Source of the DNA: a virus
Taxonomy: Duplodnaviria; Caudoviricetes
Strand: one strand, 5' to 3'
Length of the DNA stretch: 58,890 nucleotides
IMG/VR virus record: IMGVR_UViG_3300032236_000503
Coordinates: 1-58,890 of that record
This document shows positions 3,681-18,838 of this stretch, in pieces; position 1 is the first letter of the stretch, and every line of letters begins with the position of its first letter. Made by a program: the position numbers and the translations under genes. The notes below the pieces were generated by a model. It was not told the DNA's origin and searched no databases. It saw nothing but the letters and a program-made list of their open reading frames with translations.

Positions 3681-4082
3681 ATGATCCCTGAAACTGATGA
3701 TATTGATTGTACACCAAAAAATCAACCGATATCTTTTTTTATTTTGGGGGAGCCAGCGAGCAAGGCAAACAGCAGGAGGGTTGTCAGGTTCGGGGGCGTT
3801 TCCCGCCTCATCAAGAGTGAAAAGGCGCTGAGCTACAGTGAGATGTTTCGCCAACAATGCCCCGTAATAACCCCACTACTTGAAGGGGATTTATGTGTAA
3901 CCTTGCACATTCACTACGCATCGCGCAGACCCGACTTGGATGAGAGCCTCATCTTGGACTTGATGCAGGGTTGTATATACAAGAACGACCGTCAGGTGAA
4001 AGAGCGTCACTGTTACTGGCACTTGGACAAAACCAATCCAAGAGCAGAAATTACCGTGCATGCAATAGGTGTAAACCCCTAG
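3681..4082 (+). CDS. rusA: RusA-like Holliday junction resolvase
   Basis: GEPASKAN...RPDLDESLILDLMQGCIYKNDRQV...PRAEITV. Confidence 0.8.
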   Translation: MIPETDDIDCTPKNQPISFFILGEPASKANSRRVVRFGGVSRLIKSEKALSYSEMFRQQCPVITPLLEGDLCVTLHIHYASRRPDLDESLILDLMQGCIYKNDRQVKERHCYWHLDKTNPRAEITVHAIGVNP

Positions 4083-4296
4083 TCCAACTGTTCGCATTTT
4101 GTAGTATCATTGCTGCGTTGGGAAAGCGGATGCTGGGCGGTTTCGCCCGTGAACGCCAACAGTAAAGCGTTGGATACCCAGTGCAGCGAGTACCAACAAC
4201 CTAAACGCATGGGGACTGTGCAACGGGTTAGCGCCGTTGCTGGGTTGGTACACCATGAGGACACACTGCTTTATGTGAGCAGTCCCCAGCCGTGTT

Positions 4297-4401
4297 GGTA
4301 GCTGTGACCGAGTTGGCCTATGGTTGATGTAGCTAGAGGGATTTGAGTGCCGCTATGGGCAATACTTGGGTCTCCGTGAGTTCAAATTTCACCAGCCACC
4401 G
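4297..4401 (+). tRNA. tRNA-like element lacking a canonical anticodon arm (pseudo-tRNA)
   Basis: acceptor GGTAGCTG/CAGCCACC, D arm ACC-GAGTTGGCCTAT-GGT, T arm GTGAG-TTCAAAT-TTCAC. Confidence 0.6.
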
Positions 4402-4512
4402 ACAGTTTAAACGCATGGGGATTGTGGTTCGCCGTTACTAGAACCATCCTTGCAAGGCAGTCCCCAGCCGTTTATGTTATAGTGCAATCGTTGCTGTCGA
4501 ACGCAACTGTTG

Positions 4513-4592
4513 AAAGCCGTTACTCATGCATTGGCCTCCGGGGATTCTCGGGGGGTTCGACCCAGTGCAGTAGTAACGGCTTTTTTCGTTTT
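4513..4592 (+). terminator. long terminator-like hairpin (possible attenuator)
   Basis: AAAGCCGTTACT (4513-4524) pairs with AGTAACGGCTTT (4572-4583); T-rich tail follows. Confidence 0.55.
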
Positions 4593-4826
4593 CGACGCAG
4601 CCGTACTCCATACGATAGCAAGAGTTCAACCTGACGGCGTGGAAGAAAAGGGTTACACGGTAAGCGTAAAGGCGCGGGGCAACTACCCTCAACAGTCCGT
4701 GGTGCTGGTCGAATCTGCAAGCACAGGGGTTAAGGCAACTTAACATGCAGATGCCGTGAGGCGGTGAAACCAATCCCTCCCAACCCCTTCAGTGGGGAAG
4801 GGGGGTCTTTGGGTGAAATTATTTAA

Positions 4827-5336
4827 ATGCCCCCCAACGGGGGCTATGTAACGGTGCTGAAAGGACAAACAGTGATTCAAATGTCTCCCGCCGAATCCGC
4901 CATCGCGCTGATGCTGGCGGTTATGCGGAACACTACAGCGAGGCAGAACAGTGTCGGGGATAAACAAATGGGAAACCAAGACCCGATACAGATCGACCGC
5001 GACGGGATCCTTGCTGAGATGGCCTTTGGAAAACAGTTCAACCTGTACCCTGATTTTTCAGTTCACCCCCGCAAAGGTGGTGCAGATTTAATCACCAAAA
5101 CTGGTTTGAAGATTGATGTGAAAGCAACCCGATATAAGACTGGTAGACTGCTTATCCACGTTGACAAGCCGGTCACCGAGGTGGACATTTATGTACTGGG
5201 TATCGTTGATGGTGACACCGTTGACTTCATCGGGTATGTCAGATCGGAAGAGGCAATTCAATCGCAGAATTTAAAAGACCTTGGGCATGGCACTGGCTAT
5301 GTCATTGAGCAAGATGCTTTAAGGAAGTTCAAATGA
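4827..5336 (+). CDS. putative PD-(D/E)XK-type endonuclease (start uncertain)
   Basis: AEMAF...GADL...IDVKAT motif pattern. Confidence 0.55.
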   Translation: MPPNGGYVTVLKGQTVIQMSPAESAIALMLAVMRNTTARQNSVGDKQMGNQDPIQIDRDGILAEMAFGKQFNLYPDFSVHPRKGGADLITKTGLKIDVKATRYKTGRLLIHVDKPVTEVDIYVLGIVDGDTVDFIGYVRSEEAIQSQNLKDLGHGTGYVIEQDALRKFK

Positions 5337-5461: not shown

Positions 5462-5693
5462 AGATTACAAACAGGAATACAAAACACAGGTTGCGCGGGG
5501 CGAACACCCCGACCGCATGGAGCGTCAAAGGGCAAGACGTAAATTAGACGCAGAGGGGGTTTCCCGCAAAGGCAAGGACGTAGCCCACGTTAAAGCTTTA
5601 AGCAAGGGAGGGTCAAACGCTACTGGCATCAAGTTGCAGTCCCCCAGCAAGAATCGGTCATTTAAACGAAACCCCGATGGCAGCATGAAATGA
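5454..5693 (+). CDS. small HNH-like protein
   Basis: GKDVAHVKALSKGGSN...NRS pattern; ATGA-coupled to the primase. Confidence 0.65.
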   Translation: MARDYKQEYKTQVARGEHPDRMERQRARRKLDAEGVSRKGKDVAHVKALSKGGSNATGIKLQSPSKNRSFKRNPDGSMK

Positions 5694-7357
5694 TCGATGC
5701 AGTCCCGAAGGGCGGCAGGATGGTTTGCCCATACTGCTCCCCCGAACGTAAAAAATCCCGTGCAAAAGATATGAAGGTGTCGATGACACCGGATGGTGCA
5801 ATTGTTTACCACTGCCACCATTGCTCTGCGCATGGATCCACTCAACCAAAAAAGCTTACCCTTGTTAAGGAGCGCACAGTGCCTCAAGCCATCAGAGTCG
5901 AACAGTCCAACTTGGGACATGATCATTATCAGTACTTGTTGCAACGGGGTATATCCCCCACCACCGCTGATTCAATGAAGCTGTTCGCGGCGAATAAATT
6001 TTTTGCAAAGCTTGACCGCAACTCCGACGCTATCGGGTTCCCCTACTACCGCGAAGGTAAATTGGTTGCAGTGAAATACAGAAGCTTTCCAGAGAAAGCG
6101 TTTACACAAGATGCAGGCGGGGCGCATGATTTCTTTGGGCTTGATCTGTTGGAAAAGGGGAAGCCCATCATCATCGTGGAAGGCGAGATCGACTGCCTTA
6201 CATTGATGGAGGCAGGAATAAAGAACGTAGTTTCAGTTCCATCCGGTGCGCCGATTAAGGTTGCAGACGGTCGCGTCAAGCCGGAGGAGGACAAGCGTTT
6301 CAGCTATGTTTGGAATGCCGAAGAGTTCCTTGTTGCTGCACCATATGTAATTCTCGCCACAGACCAAGACGAAGCTGGGCAAGCGTTGGCGGAGGAGCTG
6401 GCTCGACGCATTGGGAAAGACAAGTGCCGCCTCGCCAAGTTCTCAACCAAAGATTTAAATGAGCTGTACCTCAGCAACCCGAATGAAGTTCAATCAGTCC
6501 TTGTTGCTGCACAACCTTATCCCATCGCGGGGCTGAGCGAGGCGTCCAGCTACGCAGACCGTTTAAACAGCCTGTACGCACGCGGAACCGGCAAAGGAAC
6601 CAGCACCGGGTACGCTTCGGTGGATGGCATTTACACGGTAGCCCCCTCTCAGCTTACGGTGGTGACCGGATACCCATCGCACGGAAAATCCAACTTCGTC
6701 GATCAACTGATGGTTAACCTCGCCCGCGACAACGAATGGACATTCGCCGTTTGCAGCTTCGAGAACCAACCGGAGATCCACATCTCCCGACTGATGGAGA
6801 TTTACACAAAGAAACGATTCTTCGATGGCAAAAACCGCATGACCCAATTGGAGGCGGACGAAGCGTTTAAATGGGTGAATGACCATTTCATCTTCATTGA
6901 CACGCAGGGCGAAGAACCCTCTACCCTTGACTCAATACTGGATCGGGTGAAGATCGCCGTAAAGCGTATGGGTGTGCGTGGGCTGGTGATCGATCCCTAC
7001 AACTACATAGACCTGCACCGCGAGACCACTGAGACCGATGCAATCTCGCAGATGCTGACACGGGTACAGAAGTTCGTTAAGACCTACGACCTGCACTGTT
7101 GGTTTGTGGCTCACCCTGCGAAGATCAACCGAGCAGGCGTGGAGCAGCCGCGACCGGATGGCATGAGCATTTCCGGATCGATGGCGTGGTGGGCAAAGAC
7201 CGACAACGGCATCACCGTGCATCGGAATATGCAGGCAGGGTATGTGGAGATTGCGGTTTGGAAGTGCCGCCATCGGTGGGTAGGCACTCAGGGGGAGACA
7301 ACCCTGCTATACGACAAGATCAGCGGAACCTATCAGGAAAACCTCGACGCCTTTTAG
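5690..7357 (+). CDS. DNA primase-helicase (T7 gp4/Twinkle-like)
   Basis: CPYC/CHHC zinc finger, TOPRIM EGEID and DQD, Walker A GYPSHGKS, LVIDPYN, VAHPAK. Confidence 0.92.
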   Translation: MIDAVPKGGRMVCPYCSPERKKSRAKDMKVSMTPDGAIVYHCHHCSAHGSTQPKKLTLVKERTVPQAIRVEQSNLGHDHYQYLLQRGISPTTADSMKLFAANKFFAKLDRNSDAIGFPYYREGKLVAVKYRSFPEKAFTQDAGGAHDFFGLDLLEKGKPIIIVEGEIDCLTLMEAGIKNVVSVPSGAPIKVADGRVKPEEDKRFSYVWNAEEFLVAAPYVILATDQDEAGQALAEELARRIGKDKCRLAKFSTKDLNELYLSNPNEVQSVLVAAQPYPIAGLSEASSYADRLNSLYARGTGKGTSTGYASVDGIYTVAPSQLTVVTGYPSHGKSNFVDQLMVNLARDNEWTFAVCSFENQPEIHISRLMEIYTKKRFFDGKNRMTQLEADEAFKWVNDHFIFIDTQGEEPSTLDSILDRVKIAVKRMGVRGLVIDPYNYIDLHRETTETDAISQMLTRVQKFVKTYDLHCWFVAHPAKINRAGVEQPRPDGMSISGSMAWWAKTDNGITVHRNMQAGYVEIAVWKCRHRWVGTQGETTLLYDKISGTYQENLDAF

Positions 7358-8836: not shown

Positions 8837-10444
8837 TCACGCCGCCAGTTTGATTTGTTTAAATGCAACCTCGCCGATGTTCGCGCCGTTGACGCGCACC
8901 GCCTTGGGGTATGCGTGGGAGATATCCAACTGGATACCCACACCGATGGTTGTGATCCCCAAAGCCTCGCCTGATAGGCACTGCGCCTTCACCGACTCGC
9001 CATCGCCTTCGCCGTCAGTGATCACAAACACTACCTTGCGCGACTCAGGGCGACCATGCAGCAACTCATGGGCATAGCGCAGCGCAGCGTAGTCGTTGGT
9101 ATCGCCGCCATCATCAACCCGCGCAACCCGCTGCAAACCCTTAGCTACTGGCATCTCGAACGGTTTCAGCACCGATACGCTGCTGCCGAATGTCAGCACC
9201 GCCGTCTTGACCTGCGCACGGTTCAACGTGTCCAGCATTGCCGCCGTGGTTTTCACTGCGTGGTTGATGTAGCAGGTAGGGATAACCTCCCCATTTTTGT
9301 CAAGCCGAATATTCCCGTTCGCGTCTTCTTCGTAACTCATGGAGAACATAGAACCCGAAACATCCAGCAGGATCACCACGGCGGAATCGATCCCCTCCGA
9401 TTCAAGACGGCGTTTAAACAAACGATCCGATAAATCAACCTTATGCAGCGACCGCACATCCAGCGATCCAGCGCGGCGGTTGTTTTGGAATTCTTCAGTC
9501 GCTGAATTCTCAAATAATTTCTTCACCTCATAGCGCATACGCGCTGGCACGTTTACCGTCAGGTCTCGGGCTGTCCTGTTGTCCGAATGGTGGTAAGCCT
9601 CTTTCCGCACCGCCGCCTTTGTGTAGGTGCCGCCTGCCGAATTGCCCGATGGTTTGAGGGATGGCTCGACCTCACGGGCGCGCATTTTTTCGGTTGGTGC
9701 AGTGGCCTTGCCTGCCTGCTGCCCTGCCTGCTGGCCGTCCTGCTGACCCGCCTGCTGGCCGTTTTTCCCATCGCCTGCACCCTTACCCTTACCCTGCCCC
9801 TGATCGCCGCTCTGAGACCCCTTAGAACCCTTTGGCGGGGCATCATCAAGCTTCTGCAACTGATCCCAAACCCACTTAGCAAGAGCCAGCGTGTCGGTGC
9901 TGTTGTAGCAGCCATCGATTCGGCGCTTAGCCTCAGCGAAGATCGGCTCAAGCCCATCTGCCAGCGGTACGCGCTTGCAGAATCCCCGCGCGTAGACCGC
10001 CAGCGAAAAGGGATATTGACGTGGATCTGCCCAATCCTTCACCTCAACAATTGCTTTATCGACCATGCCATCGACCAGCGTGGTCAGCAGTCCGGAGATA
10101 TTCCCCGTTAACTGGTTGGCAATGCCCGTGCGTTCGATCCATGCATCCTCGATTGCGTTGTGTAATTGCTTCAGGTATTGGGTGCTGCCGTTCGCATCGA
10201 AGTCGGTGTACTTTGCGTGAAGCAACTCATGCACCACAAAACCTGTATACCGTTCGACCAGTGCCTGATTGACCACAGCATCATCTGCGACATTCGCCAA
10301 ATAGACATCACCGTGTTGGTTGATCCCCGCCGTGGTGATATTGGAATCCCAGCGCAGCGTGATGCGGCGACCGAAGTCACTGGCGATCTTATGTGCAGCG
10401 GCCTCAACCCCTGCCCGAAATTGGATACCGTTTAAACGTTTCAT
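8837..10444 (-). CDS. CobT-like VWA protein with N-terminal HExxH metallopeptidase-like domain
   Basis: HELLH...NAIEDAWIE, MIDAS DVSGSM, VITDGEG. Confidence 0.85.
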   Translation of the reverse strand: MKRLNGIQFRAGVEAAAHKIASDFGRRITLRWDSNITTAGINQHGDVYLANVADDAVVNQALVERYTGFVVHELLHAKYTDFDANGSTQYLKQLHNAIEDAWIERTGIANQLTGNISGLLTTLVDGMVDKAIVEVKDWADPRQYPFSLAVYARGFCKRVPLADGLEPIFAEAKRRIDGCYNSTDTLALAKWVWDQLQKLDDAPPKGSKGSQSGDQGQGKGKGAGDGKNGQQAGQQDGQQAGQQAGKATAPTEKMRAREVEPSLKPSGNSAGGTYTKAAVRKEAYHHSDNRTARDLTVNVPARMRYEVKKLFENSATEEFQNNRRAGSLDVRSLHKVDLSDRLFKRRLESEGIDSAVVILLDVSGSMFSMSYEEDANGNIRLDKNGEVIPTCYINHAVKTTAAMLDTLNRAQVKTAVLTFGSSVSVLKPFEMPVAKGLQRVARVDDGGDTNDYAALRYAHELLHGRPESRKVVFVITDGEGDGESVKAQCLSGEALGITTIGVGIQLDISHAYPKAVRVNGANIGEVAFKQIKLAA

Positions 10445-10454
10445 TTGCAGCCCC

Positions 10455-11930
10455 TTACAGGTTGGAAAGAATGAATGCTGGATCGATGTATGCGGCCTTG
10501 ATGGCCTCGATGGCGGTGGCGGATTCCGATGGCTGGCGGTGACCGATGGACGCAGCCCAAGCCTCATCAACACCCAGCACAGCGACCGACCGCACAAACG
10601 CCATCACCGATCGGATCGATGGTGCGTCAATAATGTCGCCCGATGTAACCTTGGCGCGGCAGGCGTGGACGGCCTTTAAGACGTGTTCAGCCACTGCGTA
10701 GGTGCAGCCAGTGTGACGCACGACCGCCTCGATCTCCACGGCTGGTTCCATATGTTTAAACGCCACAACCCGTGCAAAGCGGTCAGCCAGTGCGCTGTTC
10801 ATAGTGCGAGTGCCTGCATAGCGTCCGCTCTCATCACCGTTTGTCATGGTGTTGTCAGCGGCGAACACCAGCACATCAGCAGCCCTGCGCCACACCTGAC
10901 CGCCATATGAGACCGCGCTGTTCGACTCTAGGAAACCGTTCAGCACAGCCAGCGCAGCAGGATCTGCGTTCGTTATCTCATCCAACAGAATGACGCTGGC
11001 AGGTGTGGTGAATGCGCGGAGGAAGTCGCCCATCTTGAAAACCGTTGCGCCGTTCTCCAGCCCGACCGATCCGACAAAGTCCTCCGCCGTGGTGAATTTA
11101 TTGAAGTTGATTCGGCAATACCCGCGCCCCGTACGGGCGGCAAACTGGCGGACGGTTTCCGATTTACCCGTGCCTTTTTCCCCGCCAAACCACAGGTTCT
11201 CGCCCGTTGATTGACTCAGCAGCAGATGGCGCAGGATCGAATCCGACCACACAAAGTGCGGATCAATCGCAGGGGCGCAACTATCATCAAAATGATGCAC
11301 CAGCATCTCGCCGCCCATCGCGTTCGAGACCGAAACCCCGAAGGTATTGATGGCTGGATGGGTGCCGACACGTTGCACCGAAACCATCTGCCCGACCACG
11401 GCCTGCGCACCAGCCGCCTGCACCGCCTGCTCGAATGGTTTAAACGCACGGGCGACCGCATCGGTCACCGCCTGCGATACCTTGATGTCATCGACCAGCG
11501 GCTCCGACTTGATGGCCTGCACCTCACGAATGAGCGTGTCTTGCAGGGTTGCGTTTGTCAGTACCGCCGTGCGCAGATCGGACAATGCCAAAGTGATCGA
11601 GGTGAACCCATCATGCATATGCTGCTCGACCGACCGCGCCTTATCCAGCGCGACCAGTGCATCCTGCGCAGCGTTATCGGCGACCTGCACAACTGGTTTC
11701 AAAGCAATGTTAAAAGCATCGGGGGACGCAACGGGTTGCGCTACGGGTTGCGTAGGGATTACCGCCCGCACATCGGCGACTGTGATGCGGCCTTGGTTGA
11801 TCATGGCCGCAAGCTTTCCGACCGCCGCCGTTTTGCCAGCCCATGCATCGGCACCGATCCAGCGATCCGATGCAGTGCGGATAACAGCCAACGGTATATT
11901 GGCTAAATCTATTGTGATGTCGTTTGCCAT
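10455..11930 (-). CDS. MoxR/CobS-like AAA+ ATPase
   Basis: Walker A GEKGTGKS, Walker B ILLDE, NSALADRF. Confidence 0.88.
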   Translation of the reverse strand: MANDITIDLANIPLAVIRTASDRWIGADAWAGKTAAVGKLAAMINQGRITVADVRAVIPTQPVAQPVASPDAFNIALKPVVQVADNAAQDALVALDKARSVEQHMHDGFTSITLALSDLRTAVLTNATLQDTLIREVQAIKSEPLVDDIKVSQAVTDAVARAFKPFEQAVQAAGAQAVVGQMVSVQRVGTHPAINTFGVSVSNAMGGEMLVHHFDDSCAPAIDPHFVWSDSILRHLLLSQSTGENLWFGGEKGTGKSETVRQFAARTGRGYCRINFNKFTTAEDFVGSVGLENGATVFKMGDFLRAFTTPASVILLDEITNADPAALAVLNGFLESNSAVSYGGQVWRRAADVLVFAADNTMTNGDESGRYAGTRTMNSALADRFARVVAFKHMEPAVEIEAVVRHTGCTYAVAEHVLKAVHACRAKVTSGDIIDAPSIRSVMAFVRSVAVLGVDEAWAASIGHRQPSESATAIEAIKAAYIDPAFILSNL

Positions 11931-16141: not shown

Positions 16142-18838
16142 ATGGCTACTAACATGGATAAGAGTTTGTATCAGGCCCCGCAAGGGATTGAGCAGGGTGA
16201 GCCTATTGAGATTGAGGTAGTAAACCCCGAGGAGCTACATATCCATGCAGGGCCATTGGATATTCATTTGGGTAAAGAAGAAGAAGATAATTTTGATGCT
16301 AACTTGGCAGATGAAATCCCGGAAAACCAATTGCAGACCATTGCAAGTGATTTGTCAAGCGATATTGACAACGACAAAGGTAGCCGTGCGGATTGGGAGA
16401 AAGCTTACACCGAGGGTTTAAAGCTAATGGGTCTTCAGTACGAAGAACGCACGGAGCCGTGGAATGGAGCATCCGGTGTATTTCACCCAATGATTACTGA
16501 AGCAGTTGTAAGGTTCCAGTCAGAAACCATTACGGAGATGTTCCCTGCTGCGGGGCCTGTACGTACAAAAATTATTGGAATAGAGACCCCGGAGAAGAAG
16601 CAAGCAGCTCAGCGTGTTGAAGAAGACATGAACTATGAGCTGACTGAGGTCATGCGTGAGTTTCGCCCCGAGCAAGAGCGGATGCTGTGGAGCCTGCCTG
16701 CTACCGGCTCTGCATTCAAAAAGGTTTACTTCGATCCCAATTTAAACCGCCAAGTGTCCATGTTTATCCCCGCAGAGGATATTCTTCTTCCCTACGGAGC
16801 AACGGATTTGGATACGTGTCACCGCATTACCCATGTGATGCGTAAGACAAAGAACGAAATTATCAAGTTGCAGAACGCTGGGTTTTACATTGAGTGCGAC
16901 TTACCAGATCCGCAGCGTGAAACCACCAACATCCAAAAAGCAAAAGACAGCGAGACCGGCTTTCGGGACATGAATGATGACCGCTACACGCTGTATGAAA
17001 CGCACGTGGATTTGGACATTGAAGGCTATGAAGATGAAGACAGCGAAGGGGTGACCGGCATTGCGTTACCTTATGTAGTCACAATGATTAAGGGAACCAA
17101 CACCGTATTGTCCATTCGCAGGAATTGGCTGCAAGACGATAAGCTGAAGTTGAAGCGCCAGCACTTTGTTCACTACCAATACATCCCCGGTTTTGGTGCT
17201 TACGGGTTTGGTTTGTTCCACCTTATTGGTGGGTTTGCAAAATCTGCCACAAGCATCATGCGTCAATTGGTTGATGCAGGTACGCTGTCCAACCTTCCGG
17301 GCGGTTTGAAATCCCGTGGTCTGCGTATTAAAGGTGATGACACCCCAATCGCTCCCGGAGAATTCCGCGATGTAGACATTGGATCCGGCGCATTGCGGGA
17401 CAACATCTTACCGCTACCTTACAAAGAGCCAAGCCAAGTTTTGTACACCCTGCTCAACAACATTGTTGAGGAAGGTCGCCGCTTTGCTGCTACCGCTGAT
17501 ATGCAGATCAGTGACATGTCCAGCCAAGCGCCGGTAGGCACTACCCTTGCTCTGTTGGAGCGTCAGCTTAAAGTTATGTCCGCCGTGCAAGCTCGGCTGC
17601 ATTACTCATTTAAACAAGAGCTGCGTTTGCTCGCGGAAATCATTCGGGATGATTCACCATCCGACTATGATTACGACCCCGATACAGCAGACCGCAGCGC
17701 CAAGAAAAGTGATTATCAACATGTAGACATCATCCCAGTTAGCGACCCCAATGCAGCAACATTGAGCCAAAGGGTCGTTCAGTACCAAGCGGTTATGCAG
17801 ATGGCTCAATCTGCGCCCAATATTTATAACATGCCGCAGTTACACCGGAACATGTTGGAGATTTTGGGCATTAAAAACCCCGACAAGCTTGTTCCTCTGC
17901 CAGAAGATGAGACCGTAACCGACCCCGTTACGGAAAACATGAACGTGTTGAAAGGGGTTCCGTTAAAGGCATTCCTTAACCAAGATCATCAATCTCATAT
18001 TGCTGTGCATATGGGACTGCTGAAAGACCCAATTGTCCAGCAACTCATTGGACAAAACCCGCAAGCACAAGCTATTCAGGCCGCGCTTATGGCTCACATT
18101 GCAGAGCATACGGGTTATCAGTACCGCAAACAAATTGAAACCCAGTTGGGTATGTCTTTGCCAGCGGACGATGATGATCTTGATCCGCAGATTGAATATG
18201 CACTGTCCGGCATGTTGGCACAGGCCAGCCAACAGGCGCTGCAAATTAACCAACAGCAAGCCCAACAGCAGCAGGCCCAACAGCAAGCCCAAGATCCAAT
18301 GGTGCAAATGCAGCAGCAACAGCTTCAAATGCAACAGCAGGAACTGCAACTCAAAGCCCAGCAAATGCAGCAGGAATTCCAGCTTGAGCAGCAAAAATTG
18401 CAGCTTGAGGCGCAAAAAATCCAGCTAAATGACCGTTTAAACAATCAAAAATTGTCTCTTACGGCGCAGGAAAAAGCCAAAGATGCGCAGTTAAAAGAGG
18501 CGGAATTGCGGGCAAAAATGCAGTTGGAAGGAACAAAACTGGGCAATAACGTGCGCCGGGATCAGTCTCAGCATGATATGCAACGCAACCAAATGAAATC
18601 ACAAACCGCATTGCAGATTGCAAAACAAAAAGCTGAACAGCAACGTGAAGGCATGAAGATGGGAATTGATGTTGCCCGTAGCAAAGCCGAGCATGAGCAT
18701 GAAAAAGCCAAAACGATGATTGACATCGCAAAACACCGCGCAACACAAGAGCAAGGCGTTGCAGACAAAGAACATGAGTTTAAACAATCACTCATGCAAT
18801 CAGCACAAAAGATTGTTCCACCAAAGGATGAAGAATGA
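16142..18838 (+). CDS. portal protein with long Q-rich coiled-coil C-terminus
   Basis: position after TerL; size and Q-rich barrel typical of P22-like portals. Confidence 0.85.
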   Translation: MATNMDKSLYQAPQGIEQGEPIEIEVVNPEELHIHAGPLDIHLGKEEEDNFDANLADEIPENQLQTIASDLSSDIDNDKGSRADWEKAYTEGLKLMGLQYEERTEPWNGASGVFHPMITEAVVRFQSETITEMFPAAGPVRTKIIGIETPEKKQAAQRVEEDMNYELTEVMREFRPEQERMLWSLPATGSAFKKVYFDPNLNRQVSMFIPAEDILLPYGATDLDTCHRITHVMRKTKNEIIKLQNAGFYIECDLPDPQRETTNIQKAKDSETGFRDMNDDRYTLYETHVDLDIEGYEDEDSEGVTGIALPYVVTMIKGTNTVLSIRRNWLQDDKLKLKRQHFVHYQYIPGFGAYGFGLFHLIGGFAKSATSIMRQLVDAGTLSNLPGGLKSRGLRIKGDDTPIAPGEFRDVDIGSGALRDNILPLPYKEPSQVLYTLLNNIVEEGRRFAATADMQISDMSSQAPVGTTLALLERQLKVMSAVQARLHYSFKQELRLLAEIIRDDSPSDYDYDPDTADRSAKKSDYQHVDIIPVSDPNAATLSQRVVQYQAVMQMAQSAPNIYNMPQLHRNMLEILGIKNPDKLVPLPEDETVTDPVTENMNVLKGVPLKAFLNQDHQSHIAVHMGLLKDPIVQQLIGQNPQAQAIQAALMAHIAEHTGYQYRKQIETQLGMSLPADDDDLDPQIEYALSGMLAQASQQALQINQQQAQQQQAQQQAQDPMVQMQQQQLQMQQQELQLKAQQMQQEFQLEQQKLQLEAQKIQLNDRLNNQKLSLTAQEKAKDAQLKEAELRAKMQLEGTKLGNNVRRDQSQHDMQRNQMKSQTALQIAKQKAEQQREGMKMGIDVARSKAEHEHEKAKTMIDIAKHRATQEQGVADKEHEFKQSLMQSAQKIVPPKDEE

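What the first reader, a model, noticed from the sequence alone, without database searches (positions are those of the whole stretch)
4117..4845. Tandem array of interlocking structured RNA modules upstream of the replication genes
Seen: about 730 nt between rusA and the nuclease/primase genes has no credible ORF but is tiled by at least six folded units: A (4117-4197), B (4203-4296), a tRNA-like unit (4297-4401), C (4409-4473), D (4490-4592) and E (4591-4845). The units share motifs (CCCAGTGCAG in A and D; CATG...CAG in B, C and D; GTTGG...CC(A/G)AC flanks) and carry short segments complementary to neighbouring units. Established: phage P4 CI, P1 c4 and N15 CA RNAs are processed small RNAs that control downstream termination or translation by short antisense pairing. 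Inference: this is a polycistronic ncRNA precursor or multi-switch controlling replication genes, more elaborate than those systems. It is the best candidate here for an undescribed system.
Basis: partly seen in the sequence, partly recalled or inferred. Interest (0 to 1): 0.85.

Follow-up and report, generated by a model that had tools for sequence, protein, structure and literature searches.

The report
Modular phage leader RNAs before replication genes
The gap between rusA and the replication genes of this uncultured freshwater phage holds a chain of real structured RNA modules, two of which (a pseudoknotted terminator leader and a large multi-pseudoknot RNA) recur in many related phages and match no catalogued RNA family.

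Summary
Window 4083-4871 is non-coding and is made of separable structured modules, all on the + strand.

**Unit E (4601-4822)** is about 222 nt and folds into 14 helices with three pseudoknots. On a plain MAFFT alignment of 40 relatives, 93.6% of cells are paired against 35-45% when partners are slid, and 34 of 57 pairs show compensatory changes. A model of E hits 55 of 79 RusA-anchored loci, 76 of 80 motif-anchored viral loci and two betaproteobacterial MAG contigs.

**Unit D (4487-4592)** follows an extended -10 sigma-70 promoter. It contains a hairpin whose loop forms a 7-bp pseudoknot next to an intrinsic terminator (98.8% paired on a model-fitted alignment). A model of D hits 71 of 79 RusA loci.

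**The other units:**
- B and C are copies of one hairpin type.
- The "tRNA-like" unit is tRNA-derived but is not a callable tRNA.
- A is a frame that carries different inserts in different phages.

No Rfam 15 family matches, and no GenBank phage matches.

Most likely, D plus E form the cis-acting leader of the nuclease/primase-helicase operon, and A to C are swappable cargo. The P4/P1-like antisense reading is not supported, because no complementary partner was found. Function is inferred, not shown.

The parts
4097..4107 (+). possible promoter of the A-C array (TG then TAGTAT-like -10)
   Evidence: Read from the sequence. It resembles the D promoter block and the stretch before unit A in L026. 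Weak: the two-hexamer scan did not find it.
4117..4196 (+). unit A: a frame, GTTGGGAAAGCGGATGCTG ... CAGTGCAGCGAGTACCAAC, around a variable insert
   Evidence: The exact 5' frame also occurs in L026, L126 and L175. In L026 the frame encloses the tRNA-like element instead. Its own fold is not better than shuffles.
4192..4300 (+). unit B: hairpin with a conserved base and a hypervariable top
   Evidence: Direct repeat with C and an inverted repeat. Aligned with 5 relatives. The base motif occurs in 27 other loci of 252. z = -2.25.
4298..4400 (+). tRNA-derived element: acceptor-like stem (6 of 7 pairs), D arm with GG, T arm GTGAG-TTCAAAT-TTCAC; anticodon arm replaced by a long irregular arm
   Evidence: Read from the sequence. 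The L026 homologue keeps the D and T stems through changes on both sides. Not called by ARAGORN or by Rfam. True tRNA-Met genes sit in the same gap in L068 and L107.
4398..4478 (+). unit C: second copy of the B-type hairpin
   Evidence: z = -2.9.
4475..4483 (+). extended -10 promoter of D (TG-n-TATAGT)
   Evidence: The same block, mostly with a TTGACA/TTGCAC -35 about 17 nt upstream, stands before D in the 26 aligned relatives. L091 has TTGACA-17-TATAAT. The window itself lacks a good -35.
4490..4507 (+). D hairpin 1; loop bases 4496-4502 (GTCGAAC) are the 5' strand of the D pseudoknot
4513..4592 (+). D long stem (4513-4534 with 4562-4583), pseudoknot 3' strand 4555-4561 (GTTCGAC), T run 4581-4586 and CGTTTT: an intrinsic terminator
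   Evidence: Arms 86% complementary. 12 of 12 alifold pairs carry compensatory changes. T run present in 25 of 26. Pseudoknot 98.8% paired with 6 of 7 pairs compensatory.
4601..4762 (+). E core. H1 4602-4604/4612-4614; PK1 4607-4611/4639-4643; H3 4623-4626/4633-4636; PK2 4628-4632/4650-4654; H5 4656-4660/4697-4701 enclosing two hairpins; H8 4702-4705/4721-4724; PK3 4714-4718/4747-4751; GNRA hairpin 4753-4762
   Evidence: MAFFT alignment, slid controls; model R1.
4763..4770 (+). direct repeat copy 1 (GGTGAAAC)
   Evidence: Shares at least 6 consecutive bases with copy 2 in 40 of 40 aligned relatives, although the word itself takes at least 8 forms (read by eye).
4770..4812 (+). pyrimidine-rich strand paired with the invariant G run GGGGWAGGGGGG, then TCTWTGG
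   Evidence: Helices 13 and 14 change on one side only (C-G to U-G). The 19-mer occurs in more than 119 viral stretches and 16 genome stretches.
4812..4819 (+). direct repeat copy 2 (GGTGAAAT), which begins right after a possible TTG start at 4809
   Evidence: W is A or T in all 40, giving ATG or TTG.
4829..4844 (+). GC hairpin before the ribosome-binding site of the next gene
   Evidence: Present in most of the 40 relatives with changing stems. Loops are often GNNAA or GNRA (by eye).

Best explanation
The region holds two things.

**(1) A conserved cis-acting leader of the replication operon.**
- A strong host-type promoter starts an RNA whose first 100-135 nt (D) fold into a hairpin-loop pseudoknot packed against an intrinsic terminator.
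- Transcripts that read through continue into E. E is a roughly 222-nt RNA with three pseudoknots and conserved unpaired bases.
- E's 3' end is a hairpin in which a variable pyrimidine strand (anti-Shine-Dalgarno-like) covers an invariant G run plus a UUG/AUG.
- I infer that D sets how many polymerases pass, acting as an attenuator or a ligand- or factor-sensing switch.
- I infer that E sets translation or transcript fate at the entry to the nuclease and primase-helicase genes, by opening or closing that hairpin.

**(2) Upstream of the D promoter, a variable slot holds cargo RNAs.** These are A, B, the tRNA-derived element and C, and they differ from phage to phage.

Shown: the structures, their conservation, their order and their strand. 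Inferred: every functional step.
For: **E structure**
- 57 pairs, 93.6% paired against 35-45% when slid, and 34 pairs with compensatory changes.
- U-G pairs appear only when read on the + strand, and GNRA and UUCG loops occur. This points to RNA of the + strand.
- Insertions of about 150 nt are tolerated in one peripheral hairpin.

**D structure**
-.

**Order and placement**
- In 22 of 26 relatives, D's terminator arm and T run lie 7-30 nt before E, with no room for a separate promoter.
- E always lies on rusA's strand, 240-1500 nt after it.
- E is followed by a ribosome-binding site and an operon that ends in the primase-helicase.

**Modularity**
- D is found in 71 of 79 RusA-anchored loci and E in 55 of 79, so they are separate modules.

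**Possible sequestered ribosome-binding site**
- In TCTWTGG, W is only A or T in 40 of 40.
- In Rhizobiales loci the same WTG opens a 24-27 aa frame.
- An invariant G strand facing a freely varying pyrimidine strand fits a sequestered ribosome-binding site.

**Weak hint of transcription**
- Contigs of a metatranscriptome run cover D and E, and one bridges D's T run into E. DNA carry-over is not excluded.
Against: - No ligand, no factor and no alternative (switching) helix was identified.
- A sensor normally lies before the terminator it controls, but E lies after D's terminator.
- The small frame after the WTG has no conserved length or peptide (2 to more than 20 codons, by eye). Its translation is unproven.
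- The covarying direct repeats flanking the 3' hairpin are not explained by this model.
- The D pseudoknot count rests on a model-fitted alignment. On the plain MAFFT alignment the register shifts, giving 57% paired at slide 0 and 81% at slide +1.
- RNA evidence comes from contigs of a single run.
Confidence: 0.5

Rival explanations
1. P4/P1-like RNA immunity. D is a stable small RNA released at its terminator. It pairs in trans with the two direct repeats in E, causing termination or blocking translation of the replication genes.
For: - D has its own promoter and terminator.
- E carries two identical words flanking a hairpin, as seqA and seqC do in P4 (recalled).
- In 3 of 3 relatives with the GGTGGAA word (L099, L094, L116), D's junction carries the exact complement TTCCACC (by eye).
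- The operon ends in a primase-helicase, as in P4 (recalled).
Against: - That junction is already paired within D's own pseudoknot in all relatives.
- It does not follow the repeat word in the other types: the window has GTTCGAC against GGTGAAA, and L062 has TTTCCACC against GATGGCA.
- No complement of the repeats is present in L114 or L062, or on E's strand in three near-complete genomes.
- No Rfam match.
Confidence: 0.15
2. Transcription-primed origin. The E transcript stops or forms an R-loop at the G run and provides the primer. The repeats and the A+T-rich stretch after them act as iteron and unwinding elements.
For: - E lies next to the replication genes and downstream of a strong promoter.
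- The G4-W-A-G6 run followed by UCUUUGG and an A+T-rich stretch resembles mitochondrial CSB II. The CSB II motif and its flank are printed in PMC4176368 (passages read; abstract of PMC3488243). In L116 even the following UGGAAAU matches.
- Covarying direct repeats are typical of protein-bound iterons.
- P4 alpha binds octamer iterons similar to the reverse complement of the repeat (recalled, not checked).
Against: - About 14 relatives keep D and the same replication genes but lack E, so E is dispensable for the module.
- The G run is paired with a pyrimidine strand in the RNA, which competes with a quadruplex.
- The UGGAAAU match holds for one repeat type only.
- GC skew follows gene strand and is uninformative.
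- Three pseudoknots and GNRA loops are not needed for a primer.
Confidence: 0.12
3. E is a stand-alone functional RNA cut out of the leader, such as a ribozyme, a protein scaffold or an anti-defence decoy. It sits here only because this is an early, strongly transcribed slot.
For: - Its size, pseudoknots, many invariant unpaired bases and tolerated peripheral insertions resemble the large ornate RNAs of unknown function.
- The slot also collects tRNA and tRNA-like cargo.
- E is optional.
Against: - E has a fixed orientation and always directly abuts a ribosome-binding site and gene.
- Its 3' end looks like an expression platform.
- No processing signals were identified.
Confidence: 0.13
4. The conserved features act as DNA, for example single-strand initiation or protein-binding sites, not as RNA.
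For: - The direct repeats covary without any RNA partner being found.
- Structured plasmid replication motifs that may act as ssDNA are known (PMC5737381, passages read).
Against: - Strand-specific U-G pairs, GNRA/UUCG loops and pseudoknots.
- A promoter and terminator frame the region on the same strand.
Confidence: 0.05

Closest known systems
Riboswitch-type and attenuator 5' leaders (a promoter-proximal structured aptamer with a terminator or a ribosome-binding-site hairpin)
   Same: Position in the 5' leader, a pseudoknotted conserved core, a terminator (D), and a hairpin covering a Shine-Dalgarno-like G run plus a start codon (E).
   Different: No ligand and no switching helix is known. 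Two large structured domains lie in series, with the terminator before the larger one. Covarying direct repeats flank the 3' hairpin. No Rfam family matches.
P4 CI / P1-P7 c4 / N15 CA immunity RNAs
   Same: A small RNA region upstream of phage replication genes. Two identical short words lie on the target transcript.
   Different: No complementary word was found and there is no Rfam match. D and E are much larger and pseudoknotted. Processing was not examined.
Lambdoid nut sites and HK022 put RNAs (processive antitermination)
   Same: Early-operon leader RNA. A U-rich UCUUUGG word is followed about 15 nt later by a GC hairpin, often with GNNAA loops reminiscent of boxA and boxB (recalled).
   Different: The word is a poor boxA. 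The hairpin loop is not conserved, and the hairpin is absent in 4 of 40. The site lies after D's terminator, not before it. No N-like gene was identified.
Mitochondrial CSB II and ColE1 RNA II primer-forming transcripts
   Same: Two G runs separated by one or two bases and followed by U-rich sequence, next to a T7 gp4-type primase-helicase gene. This is the family of mitochondrial TWINKLE (recalled).
   Different: The G run is base-paired in the RNA. E is dispensable in relatives. No evidence of RNA 3' ends or of an origin here.
Catalogued phage structured-RNA candidates (10,006 csRNAs from IMG/VR and RNA viruses, PMC10690425)
   Same: The same data source and the same kind of object.
   Different: I read only passages of the text, which do not mention primase or helicase leaders. 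The lists are in supplements that were closed, so E or D may already be among the unnamed candidates.

Membership tests
Any Rfam 15 family (including C4 antisense RNA, tRNA, tmRNA, RNase P, riboswitches, HEARO, GOLLD, ROOL, ARRPOF/GEBRO/PAGEV) | Covariance-model match at the family's gathering score | tested here: not met
   - 0 matches in the whole window at gathering score.
- In 3900-5000 at E <= 10, only 4 chance-level matches, the best 23.6 bits against a threshold of 39.
- No match over the E-like loci L120, L133, L123 and L126 other than an unrelated tRNA.
tRNA | Cloverleaf with an anticodon arm, callable by ARAGORN or Rfam RF00005 | tested here: not met
   - ARAGORN: 0 genes in the window.
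- No RF00005 match at E <= 10.
- Acceptor, D and T arms are present, but there is no 5-bp/7-nt anticodon arm.
P4 CI / P1 c4-type antisense control | A short word in the small RNA complementary to two repeated words on the target transcript | tested here: not met
   - The repeated words exist.
- No complement with at most 1 mismatch was found in L114 or L062.
- No complement with at most 2 mismatches of 12 lies on E's strand in three genomes.
- The 11-nt complement at window 16478-16488 has no counterpart in those genomes.
Intrinsic (rho-independent) terminator, for unit D | GC-rich stem directly followed by a U run | tested here: met
   - Stem 4513-4534 with 4562-4583, then T6.
- T run in 25 of 26 relatives.
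- 12 of 12 pairs compensatory.
- The simple scan missed it because its loop limit is 3-8 nt.
Riboswitch | Conserved aptamer plus mutually exclusive expression-platform helices, and a ligand | tested here: inconclusive
   An aptamer-like conserved core and a platform-like hairpin were found. No alternative helix was identified, and a ligand cannot be tested here.
Lambdoid nut site | boxA consensus, boxB hairpin with a GNRA-like pentaloop, and a cognate N protein | tested here: inconclusive
   Only UCUUU is shared with boxA (consensus recalled). Hairpin loops vary among GCAAA, GACAA, GCCAA, CCAA and CAAC, among others. N was not searched for.
CSB II-type primer element | G-run-dependent transcript 3' ends and an R-loop at an origin | not testable with these tools
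   Only a sequence resemblance to the motif printed in PMC4176368.

The most novel reading that the evidence does not exclude
E and D are two undescribed classes of phage regulatory RNA. D is a ligand- or factor-sensing pseudoknot-terminator switch. E is a large sensor RNA whose 3' hairpin, flanked by covarying direct repeats, works by a mechanism with no precedent. One example would be the upstream repeat replacing the downstream repeat in the RNA-DNA hybrid or on the ribosome. Together they gate phage DNA replication.
Probability: 0.2. Interest if true: 0.85.

Novelty: new variant of a known kind. Interest (0 to 1): 0.66.

Why it matters
- Large, pseudoknot-rich RNAs with this much covariation are rare, and they usually turn out to be ribozymes, riboswitches or ribonucleoprotein cores.
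- Two such motifs sit in series at the entry to the replication genes of a widespread group of uncultured freshwater (betaproteobacterial) phages. This gives a concrete, testable handle on how these phages time replication.
- The covarying direct repeats are a puzzle that known leader mechanisms do not explain.
- The variable slot also shows how tRNA-derived and hairpin modules are shuffled as cassettes.

Tried and rejected
- **Coding.** E's alignment has single-base indels and paired compensatory changes, and the ORFs of 63-98 aa in the gap are not conserved.
- **Cis partner for the direct repeats.** The searches found only the repeats themselves.
- **Partner elsewhere in the genome.** The exact hits are the repeats seen from the other strand, because those loci are reversed. 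The window's 11-nt complement at 16478 is therefore taken as chance.
- **Closing helix.** A helix between E's 5' flank and copy 1 is inconsistent across 26 flanks.
- **D junction pairing with E repeats.** Only 3 of 24 match fully (by eye).
- **Conserved peptide.** The frame through the 3' hairpin has no fixed length or reading frame.
- **GC skew as an origin marker.** Uninformative.
- **GenBank phages.** No blastn match to 4083-4826.
- **Rhizobiales and other genome hits of the G-run 19-mer.** These are not E. They score 5-12 bits with filters off, though they share the 3' hairpin and a GCUGGUC...GCAAGC...GGGG core.
- **HDV-like theta ribozymes next to phage tRNAs** (PMC10879173, listing only). 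Considered for B/C, but there is no Rfam support.
- **Parts of the window without cover in the RNA run**. These say nothing.

Full report
**Setting.** The window is a 58.9-kb IMG/VR virus record, estimated 96% complete.
- Sak-type annealing protein and PD-(D/E)XK exonuclease genes lie on the minus strand up to 3717.
- On the plus strand come rusA (3681-4082), then the gap, then a 169-aa PD-(D/E)XK-like ORF, two small ORFs, and a Toprim plus DnaB-type primase-helicase at 5690-7357.
- Homology of the 169-aa ORF to its relatives starts at residues 13-16. Its real start is therefore probably GTG 4872 behind AAAGGA, and the non-coding gap is 4083-4871.
- No polymerase genes were recognised among the ten larger ORFs tested.

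**The observation.**
- The gap folds much better than shuffled sequence.
- No tRNA is called, and no Rfam 15 family is matched, even at E <= 10.
- blastn finds nothing among 50,697 GenBank phage records.
- Relatives are plentiful in IMG/VR: 38 loci through the nuclease and at least 596 through RusA, of which 80 were kept.

**Unit E (4601-4822).**
- blastn against the loci showed that this is the most conserved stretch of the gap.
- A MAFFT alignment of 40 relatives let me draw 14 helices, three of them pseudoknots:
  - loop of H1 with 4639-4643;
  - loop of H3 with 4650-4654;
  - loop of H8 with 4747-4751.
- On that alignment 93.6% of 2155 cells pair. When the 3' partners are slid by 1-3 columns, only 35-45% pair.
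- 34 of 57 pairs change on both sides, and 0 of 500 column shuffles reach the observed covariation score.
- I derived the structure by eye from these same sequences, which favours slide 0 somewhat. The margin is large.
- Many pairs are U-G only when read on the + strand. Three hairpins carry GNRA or UUCG loops. Indels are not in threes. So this is an RNA of the + strand, not a gene.
- One peripheral hairpin (window 4664-4674) carries insertions of about 150 nt in some relatives.
- A covariance model of E finds it in:
  - 55 of 79 RusA-anchored loci, always on rusA's strand;
  - 76 of 80 viral loci picked by the G-run 19-mer;
  - 2 of 16 genome loci, both betaproteobacterial or Burkholderiales MAG contigs.

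**E's 3' end.**
- A pyrimidine-rich strand of variable sequence and length pairs with an invariant GGGGWAGGGGGG. The change is only between C-G and U-G (helices 13 and 14).
- TCTWTGG follows, with W equal to A or T in 40 of 40. That gives UUG or AUG three bases after the G run.
- I read this as a sequestered Shine-Dalgarno-like element plus a start codon. This would explain why the G strand is invariant across hosts while its partner drifts.
- In Rhizobiales and Methylococcaceae loci the same 19-mer sits behind a different upstream domain, and in L120 and L133 it opens a 24-27-aa frame.
- In E the frame is only 2 to about 20 codons and is not conserved, so this reading remains an inference.
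- A GC hairpin follows (4829-4844), and then the ribosome-binding site of the first gene.

**An unexplained feature: the direct repeats.**
- The eight bases just before the 3' hairpin (4763-4770) and just after it (4812-4819) form a direct repeat.
- The repeat word changes among relatives, and the two copies change together in 40 of 40 (by eye). Forms seen include GGTGAAA, GGGTGAA, GGTGGAA, GGTTGAAA, GGTGAC, GATGGCATA and GGACGATCC.
- A shared complementary partner would explain this, but none was found in cis or in three near-complete genomes.

**Unit D.**
- Aligning the 130-165 nt before E in 26 relatives shows a sigma-70 promoter with an extended -10 element. The window has TG-T-TATAGT at 4475-4483, and L091 has a perfect TTGACA-17-TATAAT.
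- After the promoter come a small hairpin, a long stem and a T run (25 of 26).
- All 12 alifold pairs of the long stem show compensatory changes.
- The 7-nt loop of the small hairpin is complementary to the 7 nt just before the 3' arm of the long stem, in every sequence and with many different words.
- After re-alignment with a model built on that pairing, 98.8% of 490 cells pair, 6 of 7 pairs are compensatory, and slid controls give 27-68%.
- That alignment leans towards the structure. On plain MAFFT the register drifts, giving 57% at slide 0 and 81% at slide +1.
- D occurs in 71 of 79 RusA loci, including about 14 that lack E. In one of these, L101, the first gene follows D directly.
- In 22 of 26 relatives, E starts 7-30 nt after D's T run. 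E can therefore only be made by read-through.

**Units A, B, C and the tRNA-like element.**
- B and C share an invariant stem base with a 3x3 internal loop and have unrelated tops.
- The B/C base motif occurs in 27 further loci, at up to two copies each.
- The tRNA-like element has acceptor, D and T arms. Its L026 homologue keeps the D and T stems by double changes. It has no anticodon arm and is not called as a tRNA.
- Two relatives carry a true tRNA-Met in the same gap.
- In L026 the element sits inside the frame of unit A. In the window it is free-standing.
- Contigs from a sister sample join across single modules. These units are therefore exchangeable cargo, probably transcribed from a promoter-like site before A.

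**Expression.** Contigs of one peat metatranscriptome run cover D and E of a close relative, and one contig crosses from D's T run into E. This is a weak hint only.

**What is in print.**
- A catalogue of 10,006 candidate structured RNAs from IMG/VR exists (PMC10690425). I read passages only, and its supplementary lists were closed.
- The 224-motif paper describes replication-associated plasmid motifs (PMC5737381, passages), and these are in Rfam.
- Two further searches listed nothing that describes these RNAs.

**Verdict.**
- The array is real.
- D and E are well-supported, widespread structured RNAs with no catalogued family.
- The best reading is a two-stage cis-acting leader of the replication operon, with variable cargo modules upstream.
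- The P4-like antisense reading and an origin-primer reading remain possible but have less support.

Noticed in passing
L120 3860-4050; L133 6540-6740; L119, L122, L124, L131, L134, L123: Alphaproteobacterial (Rhizobiales) and Methylococcaceae genomes carry the same pyrimidine/G-run hairpin and TCTWTGG behind a different conserved upstream domain (GCGCGGGGGTCGWAAGTCCTACGG...). There is no Rfam match. L120 lies near an S24-type repressor gene, so this is probably a prophage. It may be a sister RNA family.
   Followed up: partly
L101 3560-3815; L091 3540-3590; L099 3510-3525; L107 3535-3550; window 4403-4416: GTTTAAACGCAT words recur between rusA and the D promoter, in L101 as a perfect 16-bp palindrome (ATGCGTTTAAACGCAT). 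They look like operator sites for a repressor.
   Followed up: no
L148 4776-4876, L152 3388-3485, L166 10911-11008: Three loci have a second, partial match to the E model 130-180 nt upstream of the full E.
   Followed up: no
L111 4215-4364, L089, L101 4200-4225: A conserved hairpin CYGGAGATCAGYACCRG followed by CCACCA, resembling a tRNA 3' end, appears in several relatives. In L111 it sits next to a T-arm-like GGCAG-TTCAAAT-CTGCC.
   Followed up: no
window 3995-4001, 4387-4393, 4763-4769, 4812-4818: Four of the window's nine GGTGAAA/TTTCACC words lie within 820 nt around the gap. One of them is in the T arm of the tRNA-like element.
   Followed up: partly
window 8837-11930 (minus strand): A MoxR-type AAA+ ATPase and a von Willebrand A protein pair, followed by a SprT-like metallopeptidase, are encoded in the phage.
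   Followed up: no
L107 4265-4405: In this relative D is followed not by E but by another non-coding-looking stretch (CTCGGAATCCATGCGGTACG...). It may be a different leader module.
   Followed up: no
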